Origin: a virus
Length of the DNA: 35,442 nt
UHGV virus genome: UHGV-0072042
Reading direction: 5' to 3' (one strand)
In this document: positions 3,194-30,594 of the stretch, one piece after another
How positions within the stretch are numbered: position 1 is the stretch's first letter
Layout of the letters: every line of letters starts with the position of its first letter
The notes under the pieces: generated by a model
Told to the model about the DNA's origin: nothing
The model's database searches: none
What the model saw: the letters and a program-made list of their open reading frames with translations, nothing else
Position numbers and translations under genes: made by a program

Positions 3194-3194
3194 A

Positions 3195-3641: not shown

Positions 3642-3659
3642 TTATTTCACTCCTTTAAT

Positions 3660-5867
3660 CTAAGATTCTATTTCCATAATGTGTAGCGTGTTTATTTGAG
3701 AAAAATCTAACTTCTTACCATCCTGAGTTTCAAATGTGATATTGAAGTACTCTCCTTTTTTTAACGCGAAAATTCTACTAAAGTGAAGCCCATGCTTCCA
3801 TTGCAATGCAGTTTCATTTATACCAACACCACCTGCGAAACCAATAGAACTAGTTTGGGCATCGTCTTTATAAAAAGTAATATAACCATACTGGCCAGCT
3901 GTTGATCCGCCAAACTGATATCTAACTAGCCCTTCTACCAACAAAGTACAGTCTCGATTAGCTGTGGCTTGCCAATTTCCAGAATTCCAAGTCAACGGAT
4001 TCTCTTTCATGGATCGATTCAATTTTGCTCCAATGGTGGTTGCTACTGGTCCAATAATCAACCGAGCTTTATTAGGAATACCAGTTTGTTCAGTTCCTGT
4101 TGAATGCCACGCTTCATAAGGCAACGGCTTTTCTTCTACCAGTACATTTTTTCCATTAACTAGAGGGGTTTCTAAAAAGTTCTTAGTTCCATCTACAGAT
4201 TGTGGTTCGGTTAAGCTCACCGAATCATTCAATCCTTTTTCAGTATATTCAGGTGTGATGTCCCAGCTGTAGTCGTTCGGATTGTTACTGTCTTTCAATC
4301 CTTCACCAAAGTATTTATATTGCTCAATATTCGGGGTTCGTGTGTCGCCTTTTTCAATCTTAAGCCAGTCAATTTGAACAGCGCCTTTAGTTGCACTAGG
4401 GTATTGATATATATTCAATGCTCTTACTGCACCTACGTCTATGTTAGCTTGCGTTACTGTAAATACTAGTTGCCATACGTCTGTCATACCTTCAACGGGC
4501 GTTAAGTTCCCAGCTTTAATTGTACCTTGCAAATCTAAGTAAGCTACAAAACTCTGAGTAGCTGGTTTAGTTGCTTTCATAGTGACTACATATTTCTGGT
4601 TAACTTTGTAGTCTTCTACATTGGCTTTTGAATAAACAGAGTATTCAGTTGTAGTAATAGGAAACTGCACATCTTTGTTTGCAATATTCTTACCCAAAGC
4701 CACCTTACTCAAATAATACGGCGCATCAAGTAAGTTAGGCTGGTACGGGGTGGCTGTTGAGCCTTCTTCGATTTTGATGTTATAGCCTAAATAGCATGTA
4801 CATGCACCAGCTGAATTATTAAACCACAAAGATATTCTAGACTCTTCTGTAGTCACAAAATTAGCAGCTGTAGTAAACGTAACGCTATAGGTCGTTCTAT
4901 TGGTACCCACAGGTTTGTTTATAAGCGCCCAAACAGACCTTACTTCTGTTCCCTCTCTTAATCGAAATTCACATTGTATCGCGCCAGATGGCACGTCTAT
5001 ATCCGCCCATATATCAACGCTGAGAGAATAAGTTTTGTTTGGTAACAATGTGCGGAGGTTTAATAGTTTTCCAGCCGGAGGCGCATCTGCAGTTCTTGTA
5101 ACTGCAATGTGGTCTACTCCATCTTTTGCGGTGTAACCAGTTTGAGAGCCATTGTTGTAAAAATCATTAAAACCTACATTAGGCGCAATATTAGGGTTCC
5201 CCGAATAATCATAGCCCCCGAAGTCGATGCTGTTACTGTACATCTTTTTCAGCTTGCCGAGGTCGCCGATTTGCTGATTCGTTTGATCAATACGGTCTTC
5301 AAGTATAGTTAGATCATTTTGCGCTGAACTAACATTTTTAGAAACAGCTTCAACTTTTGCTAGTGCCTCATTTACTGCATCTGTTGCTTCTTGTTTGACT
5401 CCATCAAGTAATTGTTGAAAGTCTGCAATAAAGTAGTCTGCTTTATCTTGCGCTAGTCCGTCGATTGCTGAACGCTTCATACGGAAGGTGAAGCCTAAGT
5501 TATCACTTGTTGATCCGTCTGGATACTCGATGTAAACATAAGCTTCCACCATACCGTTATAAGCTTTCATCGCTTCTGGCAAGATATATACGACCTGTCC
5601 ATTCAAGAAGCTTTTAGTGATGAGGTTTTTCGTGATAAAAGGGATTGGCTCTTTCGTGATCATTCCATCTACTTCATCATAGATAAACATCAACAAGCGC
5701 AAGTTAGCTCCTAGCAAGTCCGCCGGTGTGCCGTTCTGTTGTTCGACGTTGAACTCTAACGCTATTTGATTATCGTATGATTTAAATACAAGCCCCGTTG
5801 CTTGCAAATCGTAGTCTTTCGGCTGTGTAGGTACTTTGATAGAGCCTTTTTTGATGACATGCGCCAT
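3660..5867 (-). CDS. Receptor-binding / baseplate upper protein: BppU-like N-terminus, coiled-coil neck, C-terminal beta-rich (carbohydrate-binding-like) domains. Tail fibre.
   Basis: N-terminal MAHVIKKGSIKVPTQPKDYDLQATGLVFKSYDNQIALEFNV resembles phage BppU_N, followed by a coiled coil (AQNDLTILEDRIDQTNQQIGDLGKLKK). 735 aa, last large gene of the tail module. Confidence 0.7.
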   Translation of the reverse strand: MAHVIKKGSIKVPTQPKDYDLQATGLVFKSYDNQIALEFNVEQQNGTPADLLGANLRLLMFIYDEVDGMITKEPIPFITKNLITKSFLNGQVVYILPEAMKAYNGMVEAYVYIEYPDGSTSDNLGFTFRMKRSAIDGLAQDKADYFIADFQQLLDGVKQEATDAVNEALAKVEAVSKNVSSAQNDLTILEDRIDQTNQQIGDLGKLKKMYSNSIDFGGYDYSGNPNIAPNVGFNDFYNNGSQTGYTAKDGVDHIAVTRTADAPPAGKLLNLRTLLPNKTYSLSVDIWADIDVPSGAIQCEFRLREGTEVRSVWALINKPVGTNRTTYSVTFTTAANFVTTEESRISLWFNNSAGACTCYLGYNIKIEEGSTATPYQPNLLDAPYYLSKVALGKNIANKDVQFPITTTEYSVYSKANVEDYKVNQKYVVTMKATKPATQSFVAYLDLQGTIKAGNLTPVEGMTDVWQLVFTVTQANIDVGAVRALNIYQYPSATKGAVQIDWLKIEKGDTRTPNIEQYKYFGEGLKDSNNPNDYSWDITPEYTEKGLNDSVSLTEPQSVDGTKNFLETPLVNGKNVLVEEKPLPYEAWHSTGTEQTGIPNKARLIIGPVATTIGAKLNRSMKENPLTWNSGNWQATANRDCTLLVEGLVRYQFGGSTAGQYGYITFYKDDAQTSSIGFAGGVGINETALQWKHGLHFSRIFALKKGEYFNITFETQDGKKLDFSQINTLHIMEIES

Positions 5868-6649
5868 TATTTCACACCTTCAATCTTAGTTATTTTCACG
5901 TCGTTGCTCATTGCGGGATTGGAAACATTGCCGGATGAAATATCTAAAGCTCTGCCGTTTGACATCGTTATCTTTCGCGCTTCGATTGTCAGTTCAAACT
6001 CGATCAACGTCATTCCTGCACTCTCGTTCCATAAATTAGCTTTTGTAATCCGCGCGTATCTTTGACGTTTTATCTCTTCTATAAAGTCGCCGTCCCCGTC
6101 TGTGTAGTGGATACGAAGCGTTTGGTAACGGAAGGTGTCGTCTGGTAGATTGACCGATTGCCCTTTTCTTAATTCTCCCTCAAAAAGAACAGAAGTAGTG
6201 TAAACACGCCGCCAACCTAGTGAATTATAACCTTCTACCGGGTCGCTGTTATGTGTCATTTTGATGTAAATTTCGCCGCTATAACGAGCAAAAGCAACGA
6301 TTAATTTCCTCAAATCGTGATCCGCGAATACCATCATTTCAACAAAACTATCATCTTCGATTCCGCCGGGGTTGTTCGCTCCCCAGCCGGCTTTAGTCGC
6401 GTATTTGCCGGGCGGAATGTCTAAAATGTTTGGATATTTTTGTGGCAACTTATAATCGCGTAACCAACGCCCACGCGCTTGCATAACTGTTTCTGGTGTA
6501 GCAAAGCCCGCGTTGCTTTCAGTAGCTAGGACGTGCGCGTCGTGATCCGAGCCGTCGTAATGGATAGCCGCTTGACGCAATAACCATTTCACAGCCTCTT
6601 CATAACTCATTTCTTCAAAAATATTTGGTTTGCTTTGAAAATCTAACAT
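5867..6649 (-). CDS. Tail/baseplate hypothetical protein (260 aa).
   Basis: Position within the tail module. No recognisable motif. Confidence 0.5.
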   Translation of the reverse strand: MLDFQSKPNIFEEMSYEEAVKWLLRQAAIHYDGSDHDAHVLATESNAGFATPETVMQARGRWLRDYKLPQKYPNILDIPPGKYATKAGWGANNPGGIEDDSFVEMMVFADHDLRKLIVAFARYSGEIYIKMTHNSDPVEGYNSLGWRRVYTTSVLFEGELRKGQSVNLPDDTFRYQTLRIHYTDGDGDFIEEIKRQRYARITKANLWNESAGMTLIEFELTIEARKITMSNGRALDISSGNVSNPAMSNDVKITKIEGVK

Positions 6650-6665
6650 TTAATTGTTCACCGCC

Positions 6666-8384
6666 TTAATAGTTATAAGTGAAGTCTTTCGCGCGTCCTA
6701 CGCCTTTACTTGTCACTTTTCTCGTTGCTGTGTCAACTTCTATTTTGTAAAACGCTAATTCGTCCGGCGTGTCTACTTGGCTAGCTGTTTGAGAAAAACC
6801 AACGTCACATAAAATCATTTTTACTGTTCCGAACGTGTCTTCTAGTTGTTGATGCCAATGTCCGCAGAAATAACCTACCACAACGCCGGCGCCTTTCGTG
6901 TTCATTGCGAAAGTTTTCGTTCCACTGAATAAGTCGTCATTTGGTTGCCCTAAGTCGCCCCAGTTAATAGTTACTGGACTTCCAGATTTAAAACCTTCTA
7001 CCAACGCGCTAATCATGTTGATATTGCGAACATTAGCACTAGCTAAACGTAAAGGTGTATGCCCTACTAATACCACGTGATAGTTTCTCGGAACGTTTAC
7101 CAACCATTCCCCGAAGGTGTTGATTTGTTTAGCGCTGAAAGCTCCCTGTGTTTCATCGCTGTAACCGTCCGCGTACTTGTCGCCTATGCCGCCTTCATAA
7201 TAATCACAAGTATCAAAACGGTAAATCGCTACATTTTTATTTGGGAATAACGCGCCTCCATATAGGTCGTTCCAATACTCTTCAAAGTCAGCGTTGCATA
7301 ACATTCCTTTTCGTTTGCGCCACGCAGGATCAAAACAAGCGTCGTGGTTTCCTTTACAGATAATAACCGGTTTCTCTTGCCCTGCTACTGCTGCATTAGT
7401 AAAGCGTTTGAGCGTACTTAACATAGAATGTCGCGCGCTCCATTCGTCGATAATGCCTATATCATTACCGAGCGAGCCAAGTCCGCCGTCGATATTGTCT
7501 CCGCCGTAAATCATCACATCTGTTTTGTTCCCTAATTTTTGAAATTGAGGGATTGCGCGCCAATGTCTTAAATAATAAGCATCTTTGTAACCGACGCCAT
7601 CTATACGCAAGTTGTGATTATCTACGTGAATGTCTGTAATGAAAGAAAAGTTAAATTTGCTGTTATTAACACTGTTGACAACCGTATTCAAATTGCGCGG
7701 CACTAGGTCAACGTATTTCATCGTGTCGTAATCAAAAAAGCGTGTTGTTTCTCTAATCTGTGAGCTGCCGACTGGCACTTGGTATTTTTGGTTTATACGA
7801 TCAGCTAATGATTCGTAGTCGCCTTTAGCTTCATTCAGAATGTTAATGATCGTACCACCTGGATCGATATTTTCCAGTATTTCACGATTATCTTCTAACC
7901 ACTGCTCCCAGTCATTTTTGCCCTGATCCATGTAATCTTTGAATTTTCTTAGCAAATCCTCAAAGGTCCACACATATCCAGAGTCACGTAACTGGCTTCT
8001 AGATATTCCAGAAATGACTCGATAGGTAAAATCCTGTGTGCTAAATTGTTCACTCCAAGTTCCATCACCTTTAAGTGATCGGAAACTGAAATGTGCGGTG
8101 TTTTCACCACCCCATTGCCAGTCAGGCTCGCTCAACGTGTAAACAAGCCTTGCCTGTGCTGGACTGTATTCCTGTACTTTTTGTTCAACAGGTTGGTTTT
8201 CGCCAAATTTTGTTGTATTAATAAAAAATGGCACTAGGCCATCGAATGTTTTTAGTTTGCCATGTTCCACCACTTCAACAACGAACTTTTGGGTTAAAAC
8301 ATCCCCTTGCCGAATTCGAACCAAATTTATTCCGTTATTTGGTTCGGTGGTGGATAGGACCATTTTATGCTGCGTTTCTGCCAC
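6666..8384 (-). CDS. Tail protein with a calcineurin-like metallophosphoesterase domain.
   Basis: Motifs in order: FITDIHVD (D-x-H), YGGDNID (GDxxD), CKGNHD (GNH[DE]), VVLVGHTP (GH), CGHWH (GHxH). Likely GTG start at 8384 after AGGAGG plus a 7-nt spacer; the ATG at 8459 in the ORF track would overlap the upstream gene. Confidence 0.7.
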   Translation of the reverse strand: MAETQHKMVLSTTEPNNGINLVRIRQGDVLTQKFVVEVVEHGKLKTFDGLVPFFINTTKFGENQPVEQKVQEYSPAQARLVYTLSEPDWQWGGENTAHFSFRSLKGDGTWSEQFSTQDFTYRVISGISRSQLRDSGYVWTFEDLLRKFKDYMDQGKNDWEQWLEDNREILENIDPGGTIINILNEAKGDYESLADRINQKYQVPVGSSQIRETTRFFDYDTMKYVDLVPRNLNTVVNSVNNSKFNFSFITDIHVDNHNLRIDGVGYKDAYYLRHWRAIPQFQKLGNKTDVMIYGGDNIDGGLGSLGNDIGIIDEWSARHSMLSTLKRFTNAAVAGQEKPVIICKGNHDACFDPAWRKRKGMLCNADFEEYWNDLYGGALFPNKNVAIYRFDTCDYYEGGIGDKYADGYSDETQGAFSAKQINTFGEWLVNVPRNYHVVLVGHTPLRLASANVRNINMISALVEGFKSGSPVTINWGDLGQPNDDLFSGTKTFAMNTKGAGVVVGYFCGHWHQQLEDTFGTVKMILCDVGFSQTASQVDTPDELAFYKIEVDTATRKVTSKGVGRAKDFTYNY

Positions 8385-8397
8385 GACTATCCCTCCT

Positions 8398-11130
8398 TTA
8401 GAAATCGATGTAGTCTCTTGCATTATGGAAATGACCAGAAGAAGATGGATAAAATTCATCCATAAATTGGAAATGAAGATGTTCTCCAGTTGATGGTCCT
8501 GTTGTCCCCATCAGCCCAATTTGCTGACCAGCAGTTACTTTTTGACCTTTTGCAACATCCACACGGCTTTGATGTGCATAGCCTGTATACATTCCATCAG
8601 CGTGTTTGATCACTGTCCAATTTCCATACCAGTCAAAGTAATTTGCATCACCTGCAACAATCACTTCGCCGTCTGCTGATGCAAAAATAGGTGTATTAGG
8701 ATTTCCATTTACAAGGTCAATACCGTTATGAAATTCTTGCGCGCCTGTAATTGGAGAAGTGCGCCAGCCAAATTCGCTCGTCACTGTGATTGGATCCGCA
8801 ATTGGTTTTATATACCCTTTCGATGCAGGAATTTCTAAATCTTTGAACTTGTCATACCATTCTTGTGCCCATGTCGTCCGTTCTGGATGTGGATCACGTG
8901 GACGTTCAAAGTTAGCCACGAATGCTTGTGCTGCTGTGTTGATATCGGTCAGATTCATGAATTGTGTCCATGTGTAAGGATAAGCGCTAGTTGCGATCCA
9001 TTGACCATTTGGTGCATGCCACATCAACAATTTGAACTGCGCCGTGATCGTGTCTGGATCATCATTGATGCCAGCCTTTGTCATTAAATTGATCATGTAG
9101 ACACGTCCGCTAGTTGCGCCAGAAGAATCGGTCCATTGCCATACACCATAACCAAACCCAGGTGCGCCATTACCCTCATCGGCGGTTGGATTAGCATCTG
9201 ATTCTCCTTGAGCATTTCCAAGTAAGGCTGCAGCAGCTTGTTTAGTAAAGCCTGCACCTATAGCCATTGCCCAAATCTGCCAATAACGTTTATCCCGATC
9301 AGTAGTCACTTCTGGTGGATATTGTCCATTCCACCCGTTGTCGTTTCCTCCAGTATTGTCACCACCGTTTGTATCGATTTTAACGCCGTTCACATATAAT
9401 TCTTTGACATCTAGACGGCCATCTATGGTTATATTTCCTTCTGAAAATTTACCATCACCGTAAAGATTATATTTGCGCTTATCAGCAGTAACGTCTGCTG
9501 GAATTTGAAAAACAGGATTCCCTCGATCGCCGCCGTCCCCAGCGTTAATGGAAAAAATATAGTTTGGTTCTTTCCATACAGCAAACCCATTTATTTTTCC
9601 ACCTCCATAAGTTGCTACGATGGATCCAAGCGATTCTCCGTGAACATCGTCAAGCCCAGTTGAAATGACCTTTTTTTCAAAAGAAAGTTGTCCTCCTTCT
9701 GCCACTAATTGGAAATCTTTATCATCCAATGTCTTTAAAGCTACCCCTTGCACGAGAATACCTGAAAGAATTCCTGCTTTAATAAAATCAGCAACTATCT
9801 CTCCTTTAGAAGTCATTGCAATACCAAAGGGACCATTTACTCCATTATCTGAATATCCTAGACCGTTTAAATTCCAGCGCCACACACGCTTCGCATTCGC
9901 TACATTTGGAGTATCCATGATAAGAATCTCTGATGGAGCTTTTTCTGGACGAAAAACGACATGTCCGCCGGAATTGCCTGTGATCCATGCCGTTGCGTTC
10001 AACACATTTTGAACTAATGTTTCTGTTCGATTGTCAATTTTCTTTTTCAATTCTTGTGCTTGTGTATTTACTGTTGAAGTGTACAACGATAAATCATTAC
10101 CTAAAATAATATCCTTATATTTTCCAAGTGTTGGGAAATAAGTGTATTCGACCATACGCTCTTTTATCTCGATATCTAGCTCTTTCGCCCTCACATGAGC
10201 GACATCACCAAAGTGCAAAGACGCTAGCTCTTGATACATCTCACCGTATTCGAGTGTGTGTTCCAATGCCACCATACTGACTGTATGAGTAGCTTTTGGC
10301 TCATGGATACGATCATTGTCAAATAAGGTTTTGCCCCATTTGATCAATTCATCAACTGTTTTACAATCTCCGTTTTCACGTTTGGCAATACGTCGATTCT
10401 CGTTGGTTACTCCATCAATTTCTAAATAACCATATTCGATAGGTTCTTTGTCTTCATCATAATCGTTATCAGGAACACCGCCAACCAAATACAAACTATT
10501 GACAATTGATTCTTCATCAATTTCTTCTTCGATTGCTTCTAAATTGATGCCAAAATCAATCCGAAAACCATTATCTGATCCAATCTGTTTTACCAGTTTC
10601 AAATCATAGTTATCCATATCAAGTTCCGCGCTAGTCACGCCAGTCAAATTTTGATTACCGTTGTTTGAACCAATGATTGCTTCAACTGGCGCGACTTGTC
10701 TTGCTGTAAATTGGTGCGTTGTCCCTACATTCGAAAGATAGTTAAATTTTTGATCAAATGCCAAACTGTTTTTAAGATTGGTCATGATCTGAGACCCATT
10801 GCCGTTATCCGTAAACGACTTGACAATAAAGTTCTTATTGGCCATAAAACCAATATGCCGAGCTGTTACAGAAACGGAGGTCAAATTCTTTTTGACATTA
10901 TAAATTTCAAAATATTGCCACGAACCATCCGGCACCTTCGCTTTTATAAAATTTCCTTTTTTTAAATAAGAGCGATACTGTCCGCTTCTTGAATAGTTAC
11001 CATAAAAACGATATTGGCCATTCAGCACACGATTGATTTCTGGCAAATCTTCCCAATCAACTAATGACGCTCCGTTAACACTCAAATCATCTGGCATTTT
11101 TTTGTAAGCATAAATAAATTCTTGCGTCAC
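8398..11130 (-). CDS. Tail-associated lysin (Tal): N-terminal tail-tip domain, internal lysozyme-like domain, C-terminal M23 (LytM) peptidase.
   Basis: M23 signature HNGIDLV...DGEV...GNWTVIKHADGMYTGYAH...GEHLHFQF. Lysozyme-like block GAGFTKQAAAALLGNAQGESDANP...GFGYGVWQWTD. Follows Dit and TMP. Confidence 0.85.
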   Translation of the reverse strand: MTQEFIYAYKKMPDDLSVNGASLVDWEDLPEINRVLNGQYRFYGNYSRSGQYRSYLKKGNFIKAKVPDGSWQYFEIYNVKKNLTSVSVTARHIGFMANKNFIVKSFTDNGNGSQIMTNLKNSLAFDQKFNYLSNVGTTHQFTARQVAPVEAIIGSNNGNQNLTGVTSAELDMDNYDLKLVKQIGSDNGFRIDFGINLEAIEEEIDEESIVNSLYLVGGVPDNDYDEDKEPIEYGYLEIDGVTNENRRIAKRENGDCKTVDELIKWGKTLFDNDRIHEPKATHTVSMVALEHTLEYGEMYQELASLHFGDVAHVRAKELDIEIKERMVEYTYFPTLGKYKDIILGNDLSLYTSTVNTQAQELKKKIDNRTETLVQNVLNATAWITGNSGGHVVFRPEKAPSEILIMDTPNVANAKRVWRWNLNGLGYSDNGVNGPFGIAMTSKGEIVADFIKAGILSGILVQGVALKTLDDKDFQLVAEGGQLSFEKKVISTGLDDVHGESLGSIVATYGGGKINGFAVWKEPNYIFSINAGDGGDRGNPVFQIPADVTADKRKYNLYGDGKFSEGNITIDGRLDVKELYVNGVKIDTNGGDNTGGNDNGWNGQYPPEVTTDRDKRYWQIWAMAIGAGFTKQAAAALLGNAQGESDANPTADEGNGAPGFGYGVWQWTDSSGATSGRVYMINLMTKAGINDDPDTITAQFKLLMWHAPNGQWIATSAYPYTWTQFMNLTDINTAAQAFVANFERPRDPHPERTTWAQEWYDKFKDLEIPASKGYIKPIADPITVTSEFGWRTSPITGAQEFHNGIDLVNGNPNTPIFASADGEVIVAGDANYFDWYGNWTVIKHADGMYTGYAHQSRVDVAKGQKVTAGQQIGLMGTTGPSTGEHLHFQFMDEFYPSSSGHFHNARDYIDF

Positions 11131-19918: not shown

Positions 19919-21646
19919 TTATCTATAGATGGAACTAAGGTAATCATCTAATTCATCCGAATCAATATCTGTCATCTGATTCATCGTTTCCTTATGACCA
20001 CACAAAAACGCCACGAAACCATCAATCTTTTTCTTTGATTGACGTTTACTTGGCGCTTTTTGTCCGTTGATGTTAGTGATTGCTACAACGTTCAAGGTGC
20101 AATAAAGGAACAATGGATTATCAAATTGAATTCGTTTCTCATAAAACAACCGTTCGACATCATCAAAAGGAGCGTTCAACACTTTAGGATATTGGGCAAC
20201 CTCAACGCATTCCAATCCTAAGTTCTCCAATTTCTCAACAAGTTTGTCGCTCATCGCTGGATCATAATTCACTTGTTGTATATCGTATAAATCCATGCAG
20301 TCTTCGATGTACTGCAAGATTTGATCTTGATCAATCATTTTACCATCGCAAAATTCAACAAAACCTTGTTCAGCTAAATCGCTGTAAGGCACGTTATCTT
20401 CTTTTTCTCGAAACTCTAAATCTTCATTGGGAATAAAATAAAGCTGCTTCACTTTAAGGACCGCTTTTCCATCTTCATCCCACGTTGGGAAGTTTAAAGA
20501 CACACAGGTCAAATCTCGTGTGCGTGATAAATCCAAACCAATGTAACAAGGTTCACCACTTAAATTTCCAAGCTCTTGGGTAGTAACCAAACACGGCTCT
20601 ACTTGATCCTGTTCAAAGAAATTATCCGCACCGTTTACAAATACATCCAAGTGCTTCGTTAGAAACTCGGCTTTTGAATGGGCTGACCGTTGTGCTGTTT
20701 TAAATGCGGACTCTAAAGCGGAAAGATCGACTGATATTCCCCAGTTAGGATTGCACATTTCCCAGACTTTTCTATCGGTCCAATCATAGTTTTTATTTGG
20801 CTCATAGATTAGAACAAAGTTCGAATCATTATCATCACGTTTCAGCACTTCTTTTGCTTCGCGATATACGCGCATCCCAACAGACGACGAACCTTTCCCA
20901 GCAGTTGATATATTAAACATCAATGGCTGTGGTAAAGAGATTTGGGCAGACTTAAAATTGTCATACTGTTCCATCTTCTCTTGCTTATGCAATTCATCAT
21001 TCAACACAAAATATGGATTGGATCCCTCGATATTATCAATATTCTTCGTTTGAACAATAAATTTATTCGAATAAGCCATATCTTCATGAATATAATCATA
21101 AGTAATACTAGAAACAGTCCCCTTTGGTCCTTTAAATATTTTAGTTCCTTCAAGTAGAATTGGATTATTTAAGATTGTAGCTGCAAAAGGTTTGGCAGCA
21201 TATTGAGCTTGAGCAAAGTCAGAAGCGCATGCATAACAATCGACTGACAAAGCACCTTCTCCATACATTGCATAGCCTAATGAACCGACAGCGATCAATG
21301 TTTTACCGTTCTTTTTAGGGATTTGGACATACGCTTCACGAGTAACACGGACAATTTGCCCTTTTTCATTTTCTTTAACCCATCCATACATCCACGAGTA
21401 AATAAATTTTTCCCAAGGTTCTAAAATGAATGGCTTTCCAACCATCTCACCTTTTGTGTGAACAATAAACGACTCAACCCAGTCCATCATTTCATTCGCA
21501 CGATCTACATCAAACCAAATATCTTTACGTTTTTTCCACCGATACAAACGATCCACTGCCAAACGAACAGTTTTAGGATATTTCCCAGGTTTCTTTCTTA
21601 CTTCTTTTGCAAATAAATCAGCATAATTTACACCAGGTTCAATCAT
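19919..21646 (-). CDS. terL: Terminase large subunit.
   Basis: 575 aa. ATPase Walker-A-like PKKNGKT. ATGA overlap with terS. Confidence 0.9.
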   Translation of the reverse strand: MIEPGVNYADLFAKEVRKKPGKYPKTVRLAVDRLYRWKKRKDIWFDVDRANEMMDWVESFIVHTKGEMVGKPFILEPWEKFIYSWMYGWVKENEKGQIVRVTREAYVQIPKKNGKTLIAVGSLGYAMYGEGALSVDCYACASDFAQAQYAAKPFAATILNNPILLEGTKIFKGPKGTVSSITYDYIHEDMAYSNKFIVQTKNIDNIEGSNPYFVLNDELHKQEKMEQYDNFKSAQISLPQPLMFNISTAGKGSSSVGMRVYREAKEVLKRDDNDSNFVLIYEPNKNYDWTDRKVWEMCNPNWGISVDLSALESAFKTAQRSAHSKAEFLTKHLDVFVNGADNFFEQDQVEPCLVTTQELGNLSGEPCYIGLDLSRTRDLTCVSLNFPTWDEDGKAVLKVKQLYFIPNEDLEFREKEDNVPYSDLAEQGFVEFCDGKMIDQDQILQYIEDCMDLYDIQQVNYDPAMSDKLVEKLENLGLECVEVAQYPKVLNAPFDDVERLFYEKRIQFDNPLFLYCTLNVVAITNINGQKAPSKRQSKKKIDGFVAFLCGHKETMNQMTDIDSDELDDYLSSIYR

Positions 21647-22107
21647 TTTTCAGCACCTGCCTTCTTACGCCATTTATTTCTGTGCGCTGCTAGTTCATCT
21701 ACTGGCTTTACTTCTGGACGTGTAATTTCTTCATCTTTTCTTGCGGTCGATCCTCCAGTAATTTGTCTACCAGTTTTTGCTTTGTTTGTTAATCCTAATA
21801 AATCTAGAGCTTTCATCTTCTTATCTGCCCAAGTTTCTACTTGTTGTGCCAATGGATGTTTTGATTGATTAGTAGCTCCTGATTTATTCGTGAATTTTTG
21901 CGTCTCCGGAAATCCTTTTTCCTTCCACAATAAATATTTGTGTTGGTAAATTTCAAAAATATCCAAGTATGATTCGATTAATGGATCAAGAGTGATGGTG
22001 TACAAATCAGACAAATTCATTATTTCTAAGATACGAGCTTTTTCAGCACTTACTTTTTCATCAATAATTGCTTTACGTTGCGCTTTAGTCGTCATTTTTG
22101 TATGCAC
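21643..22107 (-). CDS. terS: Terminase small subunit (P27-family-like).
   Basis: 154 aa, basic. Directly upstream of terL and downstream of HNH. Confidence 0.75.
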   Translation of the reverse strand: MHTKMTTKAQRKAIIDEKVSAEKARILEIMNLSDLYTITLDPLIESYLDIFEIYQHKYLLWKEKGFPETQKFTNKSGATNQSKHPLAQQVETWADKKMKALDLLGLTNKAKTGRQITGGSTARKDEEITRPEVKPVDELAAHRNKWRKKAGAEK

Positions 22108-22206
22108 CCCCCTTTGTTTTTTGAAAAATTTGACCTAACGATGCGCGTGACTCCCCGCTACCCTATCTCCCCACGCGAAAAAATTTTTAAAATGGATAGG
22201 GGGGCT
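22108..22206. other. Putative cos site / terminase recognition region.
   Basis: Intergenic region between HNH and terS. C6/G6 runs. Inverted repeat CCCTATC (22150-22156) / GATAGGG (22184-22190) bracketing palindromic AAAAAATTTTTAAAA. Confidence 0.4.
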
Positions 22207-22985: not shown

Positions 22986-23313
22986 TTTGATTCTCTCCTT
23001 TGTAATTTGTACTGATTACTTTTGCACCCATTCGCTCATACCATTCAACCTGCTCTTGTAAGTTTGGCAATGTTCTAGAAAGCAATGTGATAGTTAATTT
23101 CGAATGACCTCGTACTCCATCAGTAATATCAACATTGCAATAATTACCATTCCATACTGGCTTGATATTGCTGATCACAATATTTCCATCGCCATCTTTT
23201 ATTTCGTTTTTAATCCAATGCCTACTGTTATCATCTTCAATTGCTTTTTTATAAACTTGCCCCATACCCGCTGGAACATCAAAAGTAAGTACAGCCTCAT
23301 GAAAATCATTCAT
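22966..23313 (-). CDS. Hypothetical protein (115 aa).
   Basis: AAGGAG RBS, then 8 nt, then ATG at 23313. Confidence 0.5.
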   Translation of the reverse strand: MNDFHEAVLTFDVPAGMGQVYKKAIEDDNSRHWIKNEIKDGDGNIVISNIKPVWNGNYCNVDITDGVRGHSKLTITLLSRTLPNLQEQVEWYERMGAKVISTNYKGENQNGNDQN

Positions 23314-23373
23314 AGATAAAACTCCTTTCAAAATAAAAGAAGAGAAGCCTGATATACATCAGACTTCTCACAC

Positions 23374-23670
23374 CTATTTTATCCAATCTCTAATTTCTTT
23401 TGCCATTTTATATGTTTTAGAAAATGTTGAGTTCTCTGCTAAAAAAATTTCGCCTTTTTCAGTCAGTTTTAAAAATCTATAAGTAGCAGGTAATAAAACA
23501 TTGCTACCGTAAGTTCCACCAACAATGTAACTTTCATTTTTCAAAAAATTTAACTGGTCATTAAATTGTTCTTCTGAAATTCCCAATATACCAAAATCAA
23601 GATTTTCGTAATTTCCATTTTCAATTTCTTTTAAAATGGCATATCGTATTTTTTGGTTTTCTTTTATCAT
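23374..23670 (-). CDS. YjcQ-like phage protein.
   Basis: KIRYAILKEIENG N-terminus. AAAGGAGG RBS. Confidence 0.55.
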   Translation of the reverse strand: MIKENQKIRYAILKEIENGNYENLDFGILGISEEQFNDQLNFLKNESYIVGGTYGSNVLLPATYRFLKLTEKGEIFLAENSTFSKTYKMAKEIRDWIK

Positions 23671-23698
23671 TTATGAATAGCCTCCTTTTCATAAATGA

Positions 23699-23707
23699 AT
23701 TATACCA
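23699..23707 (-). promoter_or_regulatory. Extended -10 promoter element TGGTATAAT on the minus strand, about 29 nt upstream of the YjcQ-like gene. Possible start of the packaging/late transcript.
   Basis: Reverse complement of + strand ATTATACCA at 23699-23707. Confidence 0.4.
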
Positions 23708-23823
23708 TTTAAACAATTCATTTTGCTCATTGTAAAACAATAATAAACAGTAGCCATTGATAGAATAGATAAACACGAAAATTTAAAAGAAACTTTTCCA
23801 TTTCCTTTTAGTTTATTTTTGAT

Positions 23824-23984
23824 TATTGCTGTCTAATCAAAGCAATAGAAAAGAGCCACAGATACCAATTAATAAAACAGTTGGGATATCTTGGCTCTTT
23901 CATATTTTTTTGACACTAATAGAATATCATGCTGCAAACAATGTTTACATAGCTACAATGTTCGAACATTTAGTGAACATTGTA
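23824..23984. promoter_or_regulatory. Regulatory region immediately downstream of arpU carrying three inverted-repeat elements and repeated ACAATGTT motifs.
   Basis: TATTGCT/AGCAATA (23824-23847). AAAGAGCCA/TGGCTCTTT (23850-23900). ACAATGTT at 23937 and 23955. 14-bp perfect palindrome AATGTTCGAACATT (23957-23970) plus GAACATTGT (23975-23983). Confidence 0.5.
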
Positions 23985-23987
23985 ATT

Positions 23988-24464
23988 TTAGAATAAAGAC
24001 AGCTGTTCTTTGTACTTCTCGCTATTGTAGAACTCGATTTCACTTTCTTTTTTACATCGATCAGCACGTCTTTGCTCATACTCGTCTATAAAATTCAGAG
24101 TTTTTCTTATTTCTGCATGTCGCTGTCTAACATACGATGGAGCGTAGTCGATTTCCTCTGCGATGTCTTCCAGCTTCATTCCGTCAATATATTTCATCTT
24201 TATGATTTGATTATCAATACCAGAAAAGCTATCTATTAGTAATAGCATTTCTTCCTTTTGTTCATTTAATAGTCTCAATTCATTTTCTATCTTTTTGATG
24301 TTTTCTTCTAAAGAAGCTGATCTAGAATTTTTTTCGATACGGACGTCTGCTAAATCTCCATTGACCCATCGATTCAATTCAAGCTTACTTTTATTAAGAT
24401 TCCACTTTAAGTAAAGAATCTGCTCATCAAGTTCTTGATAATCTTTTAACCACTGAAATCTCAC
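23988..24464 (-). CDS. arpU: ArpU-family late transcriptional regulator (sigma-70 region-4-like HTH).
   Basis: LEDIAEEIDYAPSYVRQRHAEIRKTL HTH. Position just upstream of the packaging genes. Probable start at the second GTG (24464). Confidence 0.7.
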   Translation of the reverse strand: MRFQWLKDYQELDEQILYLKWNLNKSKLELNRWVNGDLADVRIEKNSRSASLEENIKKIENELRLLNEQKEEMLLLIDSFSGIDNQIIKMKYIDGMKLEDIAEEIDYAPSYVRQRHAEIRKTLNFIDEYEQRRADRCKKESEIEFYNSEKYKEQLSLF

Positions 24465-24526
24465 AAACGCCACCCCTTATATGATAAAATAGTATTGCGC
24501 TGCTATCTCGAAAGAGGTGGCTTTTT

Positions 24527-24613
24527 TTATTTTTTCTTAGCCGTTCCATTCTGGATTGCCTTTTGTTCCAAACGACGTTTTTTCTTCTTGATTTTCGATT
24601 TTGTTTTTCCCAT
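24527..24613 (-). CDS. Small Lys/Arg-rich peptide (28 aa) directly upstream of arpU.
   Basis: AAAGGAtgtttgtATG; MGKTKSKIKKKKRRLEQKAIQNGTAKKK. Confidence 0.3.
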   Translation of the reverse strand: MGKTKSKIKKKKRRLEQKAIQNGTAKKK

Positions 24614-24754
24614 ACAAACATCCTTTCTGGAATATATATCGTTCGATTTTTACTGTTTAACAAGAGATGACCAAATTTTATTGTTCGCTTTGAATCATCT
24701 CTTTGAAAAAATTTTAGTATTTTTGTAAGACCCCCTAAATCAGCTTTTTTTATT

Positions 24755-24763
24755 TGATATAAT
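24755..24763 (+). promoter_or_regulatory. Extended -10 promoter TGaTATAAT driving the reverse-oriented moron gene.
   Basis: TATAAT at 24758-24763 with TG at -15/-14. RBS GAGGTGA follows 35 nt downstream. Confidence 0.55.
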
Positions 24764-24809
24764 ATCTTCACAAGGTATTTTACTTGTAAATTAAATCGAG
24801 GTGATAATA

Positions 24810-25238
24810 ATGGAAATTGAAAATTTTGAACAAAAAAAACAGATTTTATCAAATTTATTAATTGATGGTTTTGATAACGCAAACTATTCACATAAACTTT
24901 TATTTAAAAGCGAGCTAGATGATGAAAAAGAATTTGATAAGCAAAAAGACTTAATGTGCGCCTTAACGTATTTAAATCAGGCTCACGCCAGCTTCACAAA
25001 TGCCTACACCTTTATTGCTCTTAACGATGAACTTCTTGGTGGTCGTCAAGAATTTGACAACATATTACATCAGTTCACTGAATTTAATACAGAATTCTTA
25101 AATAATGTACGAACCAACCACAGCCATCAATGGAGTGATATAGAATTTAAGCGTTTAGTAGATTTCTTTGAAGCAGCAAGCGGTTTATTAAATGGCCACG
25201 AAAGAATTCAAGGTCTGATTAATGAGGCTAGAAAATAG
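24810..25238 (+). CDS. Moron: hypothetical protein of about 143 aa, probably all alpha-helical. Transcribed opposite to the flanking phage operons.
   Basis: ATG at 24810 with RBS GAGGTGAtaataATG. Has its own promoter and terminator. No recognisable motif. Confidence 0.7.
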   Translation: MEIENFEQKKQILSNLLIDGFDNANYSHKLLFKSELDDEKEFDKQKDLMCALTYLNQAHASFTNAYTFIALNDELLGGRQEFDNILHQFTEFNTEFLNNVRTNHSHQWSDIEFKRLVDFFEAASGLLNGHERIQGLINEARK

Positions 25239-25254
25239 ACAATAATTGTTTCCC

Positions 25255-25290
25255 AGCCGACCTTACACGTCGGCTTTTTTTGCTTTTTTT
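25255..25290 (+). terminator. Rho-independent terminator for the moron.
   Basis: AGCCGAC-cttacac-GTCGGCT followed by TTTTTTTGCTTTTTTT. Confidence 0.75.
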
Positions 25291-25345
25291 AACATTTCTA
25301 ACTATTTAGCCGAGCAACTATTATTCGTTACGCGATATTCTTTTT

Positions 25346-25543
25346 TTATTTATCCCATTTGGTAAAAATCATTGGTTCCGGCATAATCTGATCATCCTTT
25401 AGCAACGCATCAGGATATTTTTTCCTTAGCTTCTTATTATTCGTATATGTTTTAAGCAACCATTGACTTGCTTCACTTTTGCTTTCACCGGAAAAATAAA
25501 TTTTCCCTGTTTGGATGCCTGCAAGTTGAATCATCATTTCCAC
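25346..25543 (-). CDS. Hypothetical early protein (65 aa).
   Basis: ORF in an operon context. Confidence 0.4.
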   Translation of the reverse strand: MEMMIQLAGIQTGKIYFSGESKSEASQWLLKTYTNNKKLRKKYPDALLKDDQIMPEPMIFTKWDK

Positions 25544-25544
25544 C

Positions 25545-25733
25545 TCAAATTAGATTTTTTTCTGCTAAATGGAGCAAAAGTAATCCGACATCAAGAATCT
25601 TTTGATCCATTATTTCAGCTACTTTGCTCGGCTTAACTCCTTGAGAAAAGAGCAAGCGTGCTTGCTCTATCTCTTCGTGAGTCCAAATAAATTTGGCTTC
25701 CTCAAGGATAATTACTGGATCAGTTGATCTCAT
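25545..25733 (-). CDS. Hypothetical early protein (62 aa), HTH-like.
   Basis: IEQARLLFSQGVKPSKVAEIMDQKILDV. Confidence 0.4.
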   Translation of the reverse strand: MRSTDPVIILEEAKFIWTHEEIEQARLLFSQGVKPSKVAEIMDQKILDVGLLLLHLAEKNLI

Positions 25734-26305
25734 TGTTCCTCTGGAAAAATGATGTCTTCCTTATGTTTGGACCAGCTATCTGCATATGGAGCAAAGTATT
25801 GTCTAGCTAGTTCGATTTGATCAATTAAAGCAGTCTCTGATAATTCATGATCTGCAGCAATTTCACTCATACTATCGCCTTCATCTAAACGGATAAGAAC
25901 GTCTCGAATATTTACGGTGACATTTTCTGGTAGTTGTAATGTCGTTGCTGTTTTAATAAATTCATCAATCGTTTCCTTTGATACTAGGATTTTCACATTT
26001 TCAACTTCTTCTACTCCATCACCTACATCAAGTGAAGTCTGCTCTTCTTTAAGCATGTCGATTGTGCCATCAGCATTTACAACGTATTCGACATTCGGTT
26101 TTTTCGTTTGTTTATTTACTGGCACTGTGTATTCGATAGTTTCTGGCTGGATTACTACAGTCACTGTTGAGCCAAGAAATTCAGTTAAATTTTCAGTACT
26201 ACCTCTCAATGATCCGTTGCTAACAACTAGTAATACTTCTGTGTTCCCATTTGATTTTGATGTTACTTTCTTTAATTCTGGTCTGAAATTCACCTGTTTT
26301 GTCAT
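25730..26305 (-). CDS. Hypothetical early protein (191 aa) with a C-terminal HTH-like segment.
   Basis: DSMSEIAADHELSETALIDQIELARQ. Confidence 0.5.
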   Translation of the reverse strand: MTKQVNFRPELKKVTSKSNGNTEVLLVVSNGSLRGSTENLTEFLGSTVTVVIQPETIEYTVPVNKQTKKPNVEYVVNADGTIDMLKEEQTSLDVGDGVEEVENVKILVSKETIDEFIKTATTLQLPENVTVNIRDVLIRLDEGDSMSEIAADHELSETALIDQIELARQYFAPYADSWSKHKEDIIFPEEQ

Positions 26306-26306
26306 T

Positions 26307-26762
26307 TTATTTTCCCTCCATTAATTTCTTTTTTCTTCGTTCCGTTTGTCTTTTCCGCTGCTGTCTTGCTGATTCAAAGCAGTCCATTTCAATGAATTTA
26401 TTGATTTTTGAATCGAACTTAGCAAATGTCACTGGAAAGCCGTATCGATGAGCAAACATTTTCATTTTCAGCATAGAGATTGCGTCTTGATAACCTTTCA
26501 CATCGATCACTTTTTTTACTTGGCCATTTTCATAGATTACAAAATCGGCTCTATAATAAATCGGTGCAATCTTACGATCATTGCATAGATAACCTTCTTG
26601 CAGCAGAACATTTTCTTGCATGGCACAGTAGGTTTCAGATAATGGCATGAAGCTCATACCGTTTCGTTTTAGTTTCATGTAATAACGAGCCTCTGCCTTT
26701 GAATCAAATGTGATGCCGTCTACTTCGTGCTTTTTGTTTCCGTATTTGCTTCTGGTTGCCAT
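26307..26762 (-). CDS. DUF1064-family phage protein (putative nuclease/resolvase-like).
   Basis: N-terminal SKYGNKKHEVDGITFDSKAEARYYMKL signature. AAGGAG RBS. Confidence 0.6.
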   Translation of the reverse strand: MATRSKYGNKKHEVDGITFDSKAEARYYMKLKRNGMSFMPLSETYCAMQENVLLQEGYLCNDRKIAPIYYRADFVIYENGQVKKVIDVKGYQDAISMLKMKMFAHRYGFPVTFAKFDSKINKFIEMDCFESARQQRKRQTERRKKKLMEGK

Positions 26763-29609: not shown

Positions 29610-30594
29610 CTTCTACACCTTCCTCGCGTCCAAAGTCTGGAATATCTATCAATTCTTCTTGAATTGGATTGATATCCTCATTTTCGATCAAATGTGCTTG
29701 CTCTATTTCTGGATGGGCAGGTACATCAGCAACTCGAGTTACTTCATTTTGGATATCATCTGGAATCACAATCGGATCTGGTTCTTTTTGTATTGGTTCA
29801 GTAATCTTTTTGTTTGAAAAGAATTTTTGTTCGAGAGTAGCCACTTTTTCTGTTTGTGGCGTTACATCTTTCCGATCATTGTCAAATTCATTTTCTAACG
29901 TATCTTTTGCAGCTTGAACTAATAAATCGTTGTCGTTGCTTGTGTTGATCAATGTTTTAGCTGCCCGATTGATTACTGTCCGTTTAGCCATTTCTTCTGG
30001 AAATTCCTTTTGCGGTCCAGGATCTTTCATTTTTGACTTAGCCCAACTTTGATCGATTTGCTTTTTCGTCATGACTGTTGTGGTCTCTTTACCATTTGTT
30101 AACTTGATGACTACATAGGCTGCAATGATTTCATTGTCTAAATTCTCGAATTTTGTTTCATGCTTTTTGACAACCATGTTTGGTCCATCCATTGCAACTT
30201 CAAACTCATCACCTTGTCGAACGACTACAGGCGTAATATCTGCCCCTCCAGTTACACGATCAAGGACCGCCATTGTTCCAAAATATGAACGCATTAGCTG
30301 AACCTTGTTTCCGTATCTAATGAAATAGCATTGTTTTTTTGCTGGAGATAACCCTTGAATAACCATGTCTAAAAGTGCATTAGAAATGGAGGTTTTCATT
30401 TCTTGATTGTTTGCAGCCATCTGCAACAAGTTTCCTCCTGTATTGTTAGTGAGTTCGAAAAAAGCACTTTTTAACGCATTTTGTGGACTATATCCTGGTG
30501 GCATTTCTAAACCTTGTTCTTGTAACCGTCCAAGATTACTGATTACCTGCTCATCTAATGAACGTTGTGTTGTTTGTGTTAAATCATTTGCCAT
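29572..30594 (-). CDS. recT: RecT-family single-strand annealing protein.
   Basis: RecT-like N-terminal region. Acidic C-terminal tail. Confidence 0.8.
   Translation of the reverse strand: MANDLTQTTQRSLDEQVISNLGRLQEQGLEMPPGYSPQNALKSAFFELTNNTGGNLLQMAANNQEMKTSISNALLDMVIQGLSPAKKQCYFIRYGNKVQLMRSYFGTMAVLDRVTGGADITPVVVRQGDEFEVAMDGPNMVVKKHETKFENLDNEIIAAYVVIKLTNGKETTTVMTKKQIDQSWAKSKMKDPGPQKEFPEEMAKRTVINRAAKTLINTSNDNDLLVQAAKDTLENEFDNDRKDVTPQTEKVATLEQKFFSNKKITEPIQKEPDPIVIPDDIQNEVTRVADVPAHPEIEQAHLIENEDINPIQEELIDIPDFGREEGVEDVSEFEDDEYPF

What the first reader, a model, noticed from the sequence alone, without database searches (positions are those of the whole stretch)
24632..25290. Autonomous reverse-oriented single-gene moron between the early operon and the late regulator
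A 143-aa ORF (24810..25238, + strand) sits alone among minus-strand phage genes. It has a near-consensus extended -10 (TGaTATAAT, 24755-24763), a good RBS and a strong intrinsic terminator (25255-25290). That is a self-contained cassette expected to be expressed from the repressed prophage. The protein (MEIENFEQKKQILSNLLIDGFDNANYSHKLLF...HERIQGLINEARK) has no motif I recognise. This is the most likely place for a lysogen-expressed defence, abortive-infection or conversion function, possibly an undescribed one. Upstream, a 10-bp inverted repeat (CAAGAGATGA...TCATCTCTTG, 24661-24705) separates it from the divergent small-peptide-arpU promoter region.
Basis: partly seen in the sequence, partly recalled or inferred. 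Interest (0 to 1): 0.75.

Follow-up and report, generated by a model that had tools for sequence, protein, structure and literature searches.

The report
Swappable reverse-facing prophage accessory gene
A small gene of unknown function faces backwards in an Enterococcus faecium phage, with its own promoter and terminator, in a slot where related phages carry other genes, one immunity-like; it is probably expressed by the dormant phage and may block other phages.

Summary
A 142-aa ORF (24810-25238, +) sits alone among minus-strand genes. It has a perfect extended -10 (TGATATAAT, 24755-24763), an RBS and an intrinsic terminator (25255-25290). The 10-bp inverted repeat is really 9 bp, is not significant and is not conserved.

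The window is a complete temperate E. faecium siphophage genome. The protein belongs to PHROG 20330 (unknown function), about 140 clusters at 50% identity in Bacillota prophages. It models as an acidic, cytoplasmic four-helix bundle (pLDDT 96.7) and is under purifying selection (dN/dS 0.21). It matches no Pfam, NCBIfam, PADLOC or informative PDB entry.

In every properly annotated context, homologues are single genes antiparallel to the flanking lytic genes. These contexts are the early operon, the early/late boundary, the head module and a non-phage integrative element.

In syntenic E. faecium phages, the slot between the last early gene and the sigma-like regulator gene is hypervariable. Seven of 56 related loci carry this gene. 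Others carry different reverse-oriented cargo, including a TIR-like protein, and each first cargo gene has its own extended -10. Some share the same promoter, as at the Listeria TERi locus.

Verdict: a genuine autonomous moron in an accessory-gene hot spot. An anti-phage function is plausible but unproven.

The parts
24755..24763 (+). Extended -10 promoter element TGATATAAT, a perfect TGnTATAAT with no good -35.
   Evidence: Read. It is one of only two perfect sites in the window. It is conserved as TGATATAAT or TGTTATAAT in relatives L094, L095, L120, L102 and L104, upstream of different cargo.
24798..24803 (+). Ribosome-binding site GAGGTG, 6 nt upstream of the ATG.
   Evidence: Read. GGTGAT is conserved in relatives with other cargo.
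24810..25238 (+). CDS of 142 aa plus stop. PHROG 20330 family. Acidic cytoplasmic helical bundle: a four-helix core plus a C-terminal helix.
   Evidence: Listed. PHROG 20330 at E=1.5e-60. About 140 clusters at 50% identity match the family profile. AF2 pLDDT 96.7, pTM 0.90. pI 4.95, no hydrophobic segment. dN/dS 0.21 against L104.
25255..25290 (+). Intrinsic terminator: AGCCGAC, a 7-nt loop, GTCGGCT, then a T-run. It is + strand specific.
   Evidence: -11.0 kcal/mol. On the minus strand the hairpin is followed by GGGAAAC, with no T-run (sequence).
24781..25360 (.). The replaceable cargo segment. Homology to syntenic phages with other cargo (L094, L120) stops at 24780 and resumes at about 25367. 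In L107, L108 and L110-type phages the variable part starts at about 24533.
   Evidence: blastn breakpoints and the alignment.
25346..25543 (-). Right flank of the slot: the last small early gene (65 aa, PHROG 6766), convergent with the cargo.
   Evidence: It is kept at 77-100% protein identity in loci with and without the target.
24527..24613 (-). Left flank: a 28-aa Lys/Arg-rich peptide gene (PHROG 9838), divergent from the cargo promoter. It is present in only some relatives.
23988..24473 (-). Left flank: a sigma-70 region 4-like regulator (161 aa, PHROG 36). It is presumed, not shown, to be the late-gene regulator, and is not demonstrably ArpU.
24662..24703 (.). 9-nt inverted repeat AAGAGATGA / TCATCTCTT with 24 nt between the arms.
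   Evidence: Found. 9% of shuffles give an equal repeat. It is not conserved and not compensated in L095 and L104.

Best explanation
This is an autonomous accessory (moron) transcription unit in a temperate Enterococcus faecium siphophage. It sits in a hypervariable slot between the last early gene and the sigma-like regulator gene.

Proposed expression (inferred). A sigma-A-type extended -10 promoter, needing no phage activator, would transcribe the single gene against the direction of the lytic operons. A + strand-specific terminator would stop the transcript before it runs antisense into the early genes. The gene should therefore be on in the repressed prophage. During lytic growth, convergent early transcription would be expected to dampen it, because no minus-strand terminator lies between the last early gene and the cassette.

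The product (shown by sequence and model). It is a 16.6-kDa acidic cytoplasmic four-helix bundle of the uncharacterised PHROG 20330 family. Its nearly invariant residues are H28 in helix 1; F89 and E95 in helix 3; and the T-x-H-S-H-Q-W-(S/T)-D-I-E-F stretch at the helix 3/4 junction. By helix geometry these should lie at one end of the bundle.

Most likely role (inferred). It protects the lysogen against other phages, acting as a stoichiometric binder or sensor of a conserved phage or host protein through that polar patch. This would resemble the small prophage proteins of the Listeria TERi locus. An enzyme role is less likely.

Shown: the cassette anatomy, the presence/absence polymorphism, cargo swapping behind a shared promoter, the family-wide reverse orientation, and the fold. 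Inferred: expression in lysogens, anti-phage function, and the binding mechanism.
For: Anatomy:
- Promoter, RBS, ORF and terminator are all present.

Real gene:
- dN/dS is 0.21.
- About 140 clusters at 50% identity match the family profile.
- The AF2 model has pLDDT 96.7.

Optional cargo:
- The target is in 7 of 56 loci with a related regulator.
- In one search, L094, L095, L102, L108 and L120 keep both flanks at protein level (orf65 91-96%; regulator 71-98%) but lack it.
- The breakpoints lie at about 24780 and 25360.

Hot spot:
- The same slot holds at least seven other reverse-oriented cargo types. In every one the first cargo gene has its own TGnTA(T/A)AAT, and most have a terminator.
- One is TIR-like (PADLOC PDLC00733, E=3.8e-16).
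- One has a sub-threshold DUF4145 match.

Shared promoter with alternating cargo:
- Seen. This is the architecture reported for the Listeria terI locus, where three cargo genes were shown to block phage production (bioRxiv 10.1101/2025.02.27.640495).

Family-wide behaviour:
- Homologues at 25-50% identity are single genes antiparallel to both neighbours. This holds in Paenibacillus phiIBB_Pl23, Ruminococcus phiRgPS_6, two E. malodoratus prophage backbones, the E. gallinarum head module and an integrase/Rep element.
- Eight of 30 non-redundant family loci have a perfect TGnTATAAT within 150 nt upstream, against 0.0103 expected per 150-nt stretch (about 0.3 loci in 30); P=6e-10.
- All phage-record hits are temperate phages.
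Against: - There are no transcription data, so expression in the lysogen is inferred from promoter sequence and orientation only.
- There is no match to any PADLOC defence model and no Pfam or NCBIfam domain.
- Fold searches return only generic four-helix bundles, so the function is not supported by homology.
- Guilt by location is weak. Only one co-occupant of the slot is recognisably defence-like, and most are unknowns.
- The low GC (31-32%) is shared by neighbouring genes, so composition does not mark the cassette as foreign.
- Truncated 94-96-aa variants occur on many contigs, so the gene is dispensable.
Confidence: 0.5

Rival explanations
1. Lysogenic-conversion factor unrelated to phage defence. 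The lysogen-expressed protein would bind or sense a host protein or small ligand and change host physiology, for example stress tolerance, competence, surface or metabolism, to the benefit of host and prophage.
Against: The resemblance to sensor domains is the generic up-down bundle, at 5-14% identity with no Pfam hit. There is no output domain and no membrane anchor. At least one slot co-occupant is TIR-like. The closest described architecture, TERi, is anti-phage.
Confidence: 0.2
2. Phage life-cycle regulator. The protein, or the act of transcribing it, would control the adjacent sigma-like regulator or the early operon. It could act as an anti-sigma-like inhibitor, or by convergent and divergent transcriptional interference, keeping late genes silent in the prophage.
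For: It is divergent from the 28-aa peptide and sigma-like regulator genes and convergent with the early operon. No minus-strand terminator separates the early operon from the cassette, so transcriptional collision is built in. In other clades the family is convergent with, and overlaps, a conserved small early gene N in 51 of 84 loci.
Against: The gene is absent from syntenic phages whose regulator is 94-98% identical (L094, L095). Homologues sit at unrelated positions, including the middle of the head module and a non-phage element, and next to cro rather than a late regulator. N occurs without the target in 45 of 77 N loci. Protein-level purifying selection argues against a purely transcriptional role.
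Confidence: 0.12
3. Lytic-cycle helper or counter-defence gene. The constitutive promoter would make the protein immediately on infection, before the early operon, to neutralise a host defence or take over a host function.
For: A host-RNAP extended -10 promoter would fire at once on DNA entry. The protein is small, acidic (pI 4.95) and helical, as many anti-defence proteins are (my own knowledge). It is variably present, as anti-defence genes are.
Against: It is oriented head-on to the early operon in essentially every context, which would penalise expression exactly when lytic genes are on. All three phage-record hits are temperate phages, with none in virulent phages. The co-occupants include a TIR-like protein typical of defence, not counter-defence.
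Confidence: 0.12
4. Divergent HEPN-type RNase acting as an abortive-infection toxin. The E. faecium protein carries R101-x4-H106 at the helix 3/4 junction of a four-helix bundle.
For: The window protein has RTNHSH, which matches Rx4-6H, at the position where HEPN domains carry their motif. The position of the HEPN motif is from my own knowledge.
Confidence: 0.04

Closest known systems
TERi locus of Listeria monocytogenes comK prophages (terI / orf80 / orf180; Azulay et al., bioRxiv 10.1101/2025.02.27.640495)
   Same: A small gene lies on the strand opposite to the lytic genes and has its own sigma-A promoter. The promoter region is conserved among related prophages while the gene behind it alternates between unrelated small ORFs. 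That matches here and in the paper.
   Different: The position differs: early/late boundary here, inside the early module there. There is no sequence relative in any Listeria phage record. The protein is 142 aa and a helical bundle; TerI is 65 aa. No flanking self-immunity genes are identified here. Lysogenic transcription and anti-phage activity are shown for TERi and untested here.
Morons of lambdoid and other temperate phages (Juhala/Hendrix definition; lysogen-expressed accessory loci, reviewed in PMC7067206)
   Same: A single gene is flanked by its own promoter and terminator and inserted between two genes that are adjacent in related phages. It is dispensable and variably present.
   Different: Only the cargo and terminator are exchanged here. 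The promoter and leader stay with the slot in one group of relatives. The composition is not clearly distinct from the neighbours.
Prophage-mediated defence genes of mycobacteriophages (for example Sbash gp30/31, PMC6426596)
   Same: Both are reverse-oriented genes embedded among lytic genes of temperate phages. The mycobacteriophage genes are expressed in lysogeny, by the abstract seen and my own knowledge; expression is only predicted here.
   Different: The host phylum differs and the proteins are unrelated. Those systems have demonstrated phenotypes.
Four-helix-bundle ligand-binding sensor domains (4HB_MCP type: PcaY_PP 6s18, Tsr 2d4u, Tar 1lih)
   Different: Identity is 10-13% and there is no Pfam match. 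The protein is cytoplasmic, with no transmembrane helices or signalling domain. De novo designed bundles score equally well, so the similarity is generic.

Membership tests
Moron / autonomous prophage accessory cassette | Own promoter upstream of the gene | tested here: met
   A perfect TGnTATAAT lies at 24755-24763, one of two in the 35.4-kb window. This is sequence-level evidence only.
Moron / autonomous prophage accessory cassette | Own factor-independent terminator downstream | tested here: met
   Hairpin at 25255-25275 plus a T-run, -11.0 kcal/mol, + strand specific.
Moron / autonomous prophage accessory cassette | Present or absent between genes that are adjacent or syntenic in related phages | tested here: met
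   The gene is in 7 of 56 related loci. L094, L095, L102, L108 and L120 keep both flanks without it.
Moron / autonomous prophage accessory cassette | Nucleotide composition distinct from the surrounding phage genome | tested here: inconclusive
   The cassette has 31% GC against 37% for the window. However, 23200-25200 is uniformly low, at 26-34%.
Moron / autonomous prophage accessory cassette | Transcribed from the repressed prophage | not testable with these tools
   No expression data are available, and literature searches found none for E. faecium prophages.
TERi-type prophage defence hot spot | Gene on the strand opposite to the flanking lytic genes | tested here: met
TERi-type prophage defence hot spot | Conserved promoter with alternating unrelated cargo genes among related prophages | tested here: met
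   Homology with L094 and L120 runs through the promoter and leader to 24780. L094, L095 and L120 share this framework (TGTTATAAT form) with other cargo. L102 and L104 carry TGATATAAT.
TERi-type prophage defence hot spot | Sequence relationship to TerI, TerI-80 or TerI-180 | tested here: not met
   tblastn against 50,697 phage records gave no Listeria phage hit. The TerI sequences themselves were not available for a direct comparison.
TERi-type prophage defence hot spot | Blocks virion production of incoming phages (DNA packaging inhibition) | not testable with these tools
   This needs an experiment.
PHROG 20330 (unknown function) | Full-length match to the family profile | tested here: met
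   E=1.5e-60 over residues 1-135. All 80 aligned homologues match the same PHROG.
HEPN RNase superfamily | Conserved Rx4-6H catalytic motif | tested here: not met
   R101-x4-H106 exists in the window protein, but R101 is not conserved across the family. H104, S105 and Q107 are the nearly invariant residues.
Known anti-phage defence systems (PADLOC-DB v2) | Match to any defence-protein model | tested here: not met
   No families matched at E<=1.
4HB_MCP-type sensor domain | Sequence-profile match and a periplasmic location between two transmembrane helices | tested here: not met
   There is no Pfam hit. The maximum Kyte-Doolittle-19 value is 0.45, so there is no transmembrane segment. Only a generic fold similarity is seen.

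The most novel reading that the evidence does not exclude
PHROG 20330 is a previously unrecognised single-protein anti-phage (or phage-interference) family spread through prophages of Bacilli and Clostridia. It would act through an invariant His/Ser/Gln/Trp patch on a four-helix bundle. The E. faecium early/late-boundary slot would be a defence hot spot with a resident promoter and exchangeable cargo, a second instance of the Listeria TERi principle in a clinically important host. In other clades the family's frequent convergent overlap with the small early protein N could then be a built-in self-immunity or off-switch.
Probability: 0.3. Interest if true: 0.7.

Novelty: new member of a known kind. 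Interest (0 to 1): 0.5.

Why it matters
E. faecium is a major hospital pathogen and a target of phage therapy. Prophage-encoded resistance to therapeutic phages in this species is poorly mapped. This cassette is very common: the exact protein was seen on 456 contigs. The slot it occupies offers a simple rule for finding lysogen-expressed accessory genes in enterococcal prophages: look behind the conserved TGnTATAAT between the last early gene and the sigma-like regulator.

If the family proves to be anti-phage, it would add a small protein with no recognised domain, of unknown mechanism, to the defence catalogue. It would also show that resident-promoter, swappable-cargo loci are general in phages of Gram-positive bacteria. 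If it is not, it is still a clean, well-bounded example of a moron for transcription and evolution studies.

Tried and rejected
- Pfam, NCBIfam and PADLOC scans of the protein gave nothing meaningful. A Pfam scan of 80 homologues gave only single scattered hits.
- A profile search of the PDB by sequence gave nothing below E=0.76.
- The HEPN idea, prompted by RTNHSH, was rejected because the Arg is not conserved.
- The inverted repeat as an operator or terminator was rejected: 9 nt, 9% of shuffles, no compensation in relatives, no T-run on either strand.
- An obligate two-gene system with the convergent neighbour N was rejected for this window. No N homologue is present, and N occurs without the target in 45 of 77 loci. 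N adjoins the target in 51 of 84 family loci.
- A conserved partner among Enterococcus neighbours was rejected. The flanking small proteins are unrelated between E. faecium and E. malodoratus.
- A plasmid association was rejected; there was one weak hit.
- The crude ORF-based strand calls are noisy in AT-rich DNA. I relied on annotated or called-gene contexts instead.
- Literature searches for E. faecium prophage transcriptomes, or for a named function for this gene, found nothing.

Full report
**1. What is in the sequence**

- The ORF runs 24810-25238 on the + strand and encodes 142 aa. The GTG at 24801 lies inside the RBS. Homologues start at the ATG with MEIENF or MMDFENF.
- TGATATAAT at 24755-24763 is a perfect extended -10. 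Only one other perfect TGnTATAAT exists in the 35.4-kb window on either strand.
- No acceptable -35 is present at 16-18 nt spacing by my reading. This is why the two-hexamer scan did not list the site.
- The RBS GAGGTG lies at 24798-24803.
- The terminator (stem 25255-25275, then T7-GC-T7) folds at -11.0 kcal/mol and has a T-run only on the + strand.
- GC and AT skew change sign across the ORF.
- The inverted repeat is 9 nt (24662-24670 / 24695-24703). An equal repeat occurs in 9% of shuffles. It is not preserved or compensated in close relatives. I do not treat it as a feature.

**2. Whose genome this is**

The window is a circular permutation of a complete temperate siphophage genome.
- It is collinear with OY731397.1 and 98.6% identical over 23300-26400.
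- The exact protein is annotated as 'hypothetical protein' in Enterococcus faecium and other enterococci, on 456 contigs.
- All neighbours from the lysis and structural genes through the early operon are on the minus strand.
- The gene to the left (23988-24473) matches sigma-70 region 4, DUF1492 and PHROG 36, and no ArpU model was among its NCBIfam matches.
- Between that gene and the cassette lies a 28-aa basic peptide gene (PHROG 9838).

**3. The protein**

No known family or function could be assigned.
- It has no Pfam, NCBIfam or PADLOC match. It belongs to PHROG 20330, of unknown function (E=1.5e-60), and all 80 aligned homologues hit the same PHROG.
- A profile search of 1.84 billion cluster representatives found 140 clusters at E<=1e-3. 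All listed matches are small proteins of at most 152 aa, most of them 110-145 aa, and none is long enough to carry a fused domain.
- Hosts are Bacillota: Enterococcus, Vagococcus, Neobacillus, Lacticaseibacillus, Lachnospiraceae, Clostridium and Desulfosporosinus. The annotated phage hosts Paenibacillus and Ruminococcus add to this list.
- With the 80-sequence alignment, AlphaFold2 gives pLDDT 96.7 and pTM 0.90. The model is an up-down four-helix bundle (helices 2-36, 41-71, 80-101, 107-126) plus a short C-terminal helix.
- The protein is acidic (pI 4.95; family median 4.9) and has no hydrophobic segment.
- The nearly invariant residues are F89, E95, H104, S105 and Q107, with H28, T102, W108 and D110-F113 highly conserved.
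- The window protein has R101-x4-H106, a HEPN-like spacing, but the Arg is not conserved. I reject HEPN membership.
- dN/dS against the 84%-identical L104 homologue is 0.21, so the protein is under purifying selection.

**4. The cassette is optional and the slot is hypervariable**

I fetched 56 viral contigs encoding a relative of the sigma-like regulator. Only seven carry the target.
- Many of the others keep the flanking genes (28-aa peptide, 65-aa, 62-aa and 191-aa ORFs, DUF1064) at 90-100% identity.
- blastn breakpoints against L094 and L120 are 24780 on the left and about 25367 on the right. Against L107, L108 and L110 they are about 24533 and about 25360-25490.
- The exchanged segment is therefore the RBS-proximal leader, the ORF and the terminator. 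In one group of relatives the promoter and leader stay in place.
- The slot holds at least seven other cargo types, all reverse-oriented relative to the phage genes:
  - a 70-aa gene, alone or with a 96-aa gene;
  - a 233-aa protein (PHROG 1305, sub-threshold DUF4145);
  - a 229-aa protein matching the PADLOC TIR effector model at E=3.8e-16;
  - a 257-aa protein (PHROG 7805);
  - two small membrane proteins;
  - a 99-aa protein.
- In every cargo type the first gene has its own TGnTATAAT or TGnTAAAAT, and most have a hairpin plus T-run terminator.

**5. The family behaves the same way elsewhere**

In every context with deposited annotation or called genes, the homologue is a single gene antiparallel to both neighbours. 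I added one context (L048) from my own reading of the ORFs.
- Paenibacillus phage phiIBB_Pl23 gp41 lies in the early operon.
- Ruminococcus phage phiRgPS_6 gp25 lies two genes after cro.
- A gut Lachnospiraceae-type phage (L048) has it two genes after a cro-like gene.
- Two different E. malodoratus prophage backbones carry the identical 136-aa protein at the early/late boundary.
- E. gallinarum and E. casseliflavus prophages have it between the Mu F-like head protein and the protease/scaffold genes.
- It also occurs in an integrase/Rep/PcfJK element.
- Eight of 30 non-redundant family loci have a perfect TGnTATAAT within 150 nt upstream, against 0.0103 expected per 150-nt stretch (about 0.3 loci in 30), P=6e-10. 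Twelve of 30 have TGnTAnAAT.
- All three phage-record hits are temperate phages.

They also exclude two of its refutation conditions.

**6. An unexpected neighbour**

Outside the E. faecium, E. malodoratus and E. gallinarum clades, 51 of 84 family loci have a conserved small early protein immediately downstream. I call it N. Its core is IDP(D/E)S(Y/W)xxKE(I/L)x(Y/W)Q(T/S). It is convergent with the target, and the two genes often overlap at their 3' ends.
- N is not an obligate partner. 45 of 77 N loci lack the target, even where N is 100% identical. The position then holds forward genes or other reverse genes.
- The window has no N homologue.
- N may mark a preferred insertion slot, or it may be a remnant regulatory or self-immunity partner. 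I cannot tell which.

**7. How it most likely works**

The steps shown are the cassette anatomy, the polymorphism, cargo swapping behind a shared promoter, the family-wide reverse orientation, and the fold. The following steps are inferred.
- A sigma-A extended -10 promoter needs no phage factor, so the gene should be transcribed in the repressed prophage.
- The one-way terminator protects the early genes from antisense read-through.
- No minus-strand terminator separates the early operon from the cassette. Lytic transcription should therefore collide with cassette transcription and dampen it.
- The product has no recognisable catalytic domain and has a conserved polar patch. I think it most likely acts by binding a conserved phage or host protein.
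- The closest described system is the Listeria TERi locus. There a reverse-oriented gene inside the early module is transcribed in lysogeny. Its promoter is conserved in 96% of comK prophages. Five unrelated small genes alternate behind that promoter, and three of them block DNA packaging of incoming phages (bioRxiv 10.1101/2025.02.27.640495).
- The architecture matches. The proteins are unrelated and the function here is untested.

**8. Rivals**

- A host-directed conversion factor is the main rival (0.2). The sensor-like bundle fold and wide host range are compatible with it.
- A life-cycle regulator (0.12) is disfavoured. Phages with a 94-98% identical regulator lack the gene, and homologues sit in unrelated positions.
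- An immediate-early counter-defence role (0.12) is disfavoured by the head-on orientation and the restriction to temperate phages.
- A HEPN toxin (0.04) fails the motif test.

**9. Verdict**

The finding is real and the 'moron' reading is right.
- The new points are that the promoter belongs to the slot rather than to the gene, that the slot is a multi-cargo hot spot, and that the protein belongs to a broad uncharacterised family that is reverse-oriented wherever it occurs.
- This is a new member of a known kind: a prophage accessory cassette in a hot spot.
- Interest is moderate (0.5). It is a good, cheap experimental candidate in a clinically relevant host, but nothing yet shows a new mechanism.

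Noticed in passing
window 23342-23707 (minus strand): The yjcQ-like gene (23374-23670, Pfam YjcQ E=3e-16) is a second self-contained unit. It has the only other perfect TGnTATAAT in the window (23707-23699) and a 12-bp-stem terminator (23369-23342). In relatives L088 and L090 this position holds a reverse-oriented 167-aa gene, and in L087 other genes, so it looks like a second variable slot.
   Followed up: partly
window 24465-24535: A + strand TGATAAAAT (24482-24490) is followed by a + strand-only hairpin and T-run (24502-24530), between the 28-aa peptide gene and the sigma-like gene. In L101, L103, L107 and L108 the same promoter and hairpin precede the reverse cargo. On the minus-strand mRNA, GCCACCTCTT can pair with the RBS AAGGGGTGGC of the sigma-like gene (-18.8 kcal/mol), which could control its translation.
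   Followed up: partly
window 30591-30594 versus L003 (OY731397.1) 21181-22163: The near-identical phage has an extra 983 bp after recT, with another reverse-oriented 116-aa gene (21234-21584) and a 199-aa gene. The window lacks this segment, so it is a third variable slot.
   Followed up: no
L011-L082, immediately downstream of the family member (for example L048 4297-4494, L002 4298-4549, L001 4313-4795): A conserved small early protein N (core IDP[DE]S[YW]xxKE[IL]x[YW]Q[TS]) is convergent with, and often overlaps, the PHROG 20330 gene in 51 of 84 family loci across very different Bacillota phages. N occurs without it in 45 of 77 N loci. This is unexplained.
   Followed up: yes
L110 2564-3253 (minus strand in the locus): A 229-aa protein in the same slot of a syntenic E. 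faecium phage matches the PADLOC TIR effector model (E=3.8e-16). It has TGATATAAT upstream and a strong terminator (-18.6 kcal/mol). It is a candidate single-gene TIR defence carried by a prophage.
   Followed up: partly
window 24770-24787: A short 5'-leader hairpin ACAAG-N8-CTTGT lies just downstream of the -10. Relatives with other cargo have a different self-complementary pair (TCGA...TCGA) at the same place, which may be a conserved 5' stem-loop.
   Followed up: no
window 3170-9776: This 6.6-kb stretch, containing large minus-strand ORFs, has no counterpart in the near-identical phage OY731397.1, while the rest of the genome is 93-98% identical.
   Followed up: no
protein cluster of the window ORF: Truncated 94-96-aa versions of the protein are recorded on many E. 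faecium contigs (for example P0157 on 70 contigs), so the gene is decaying in part of the population.
   Followed up: no
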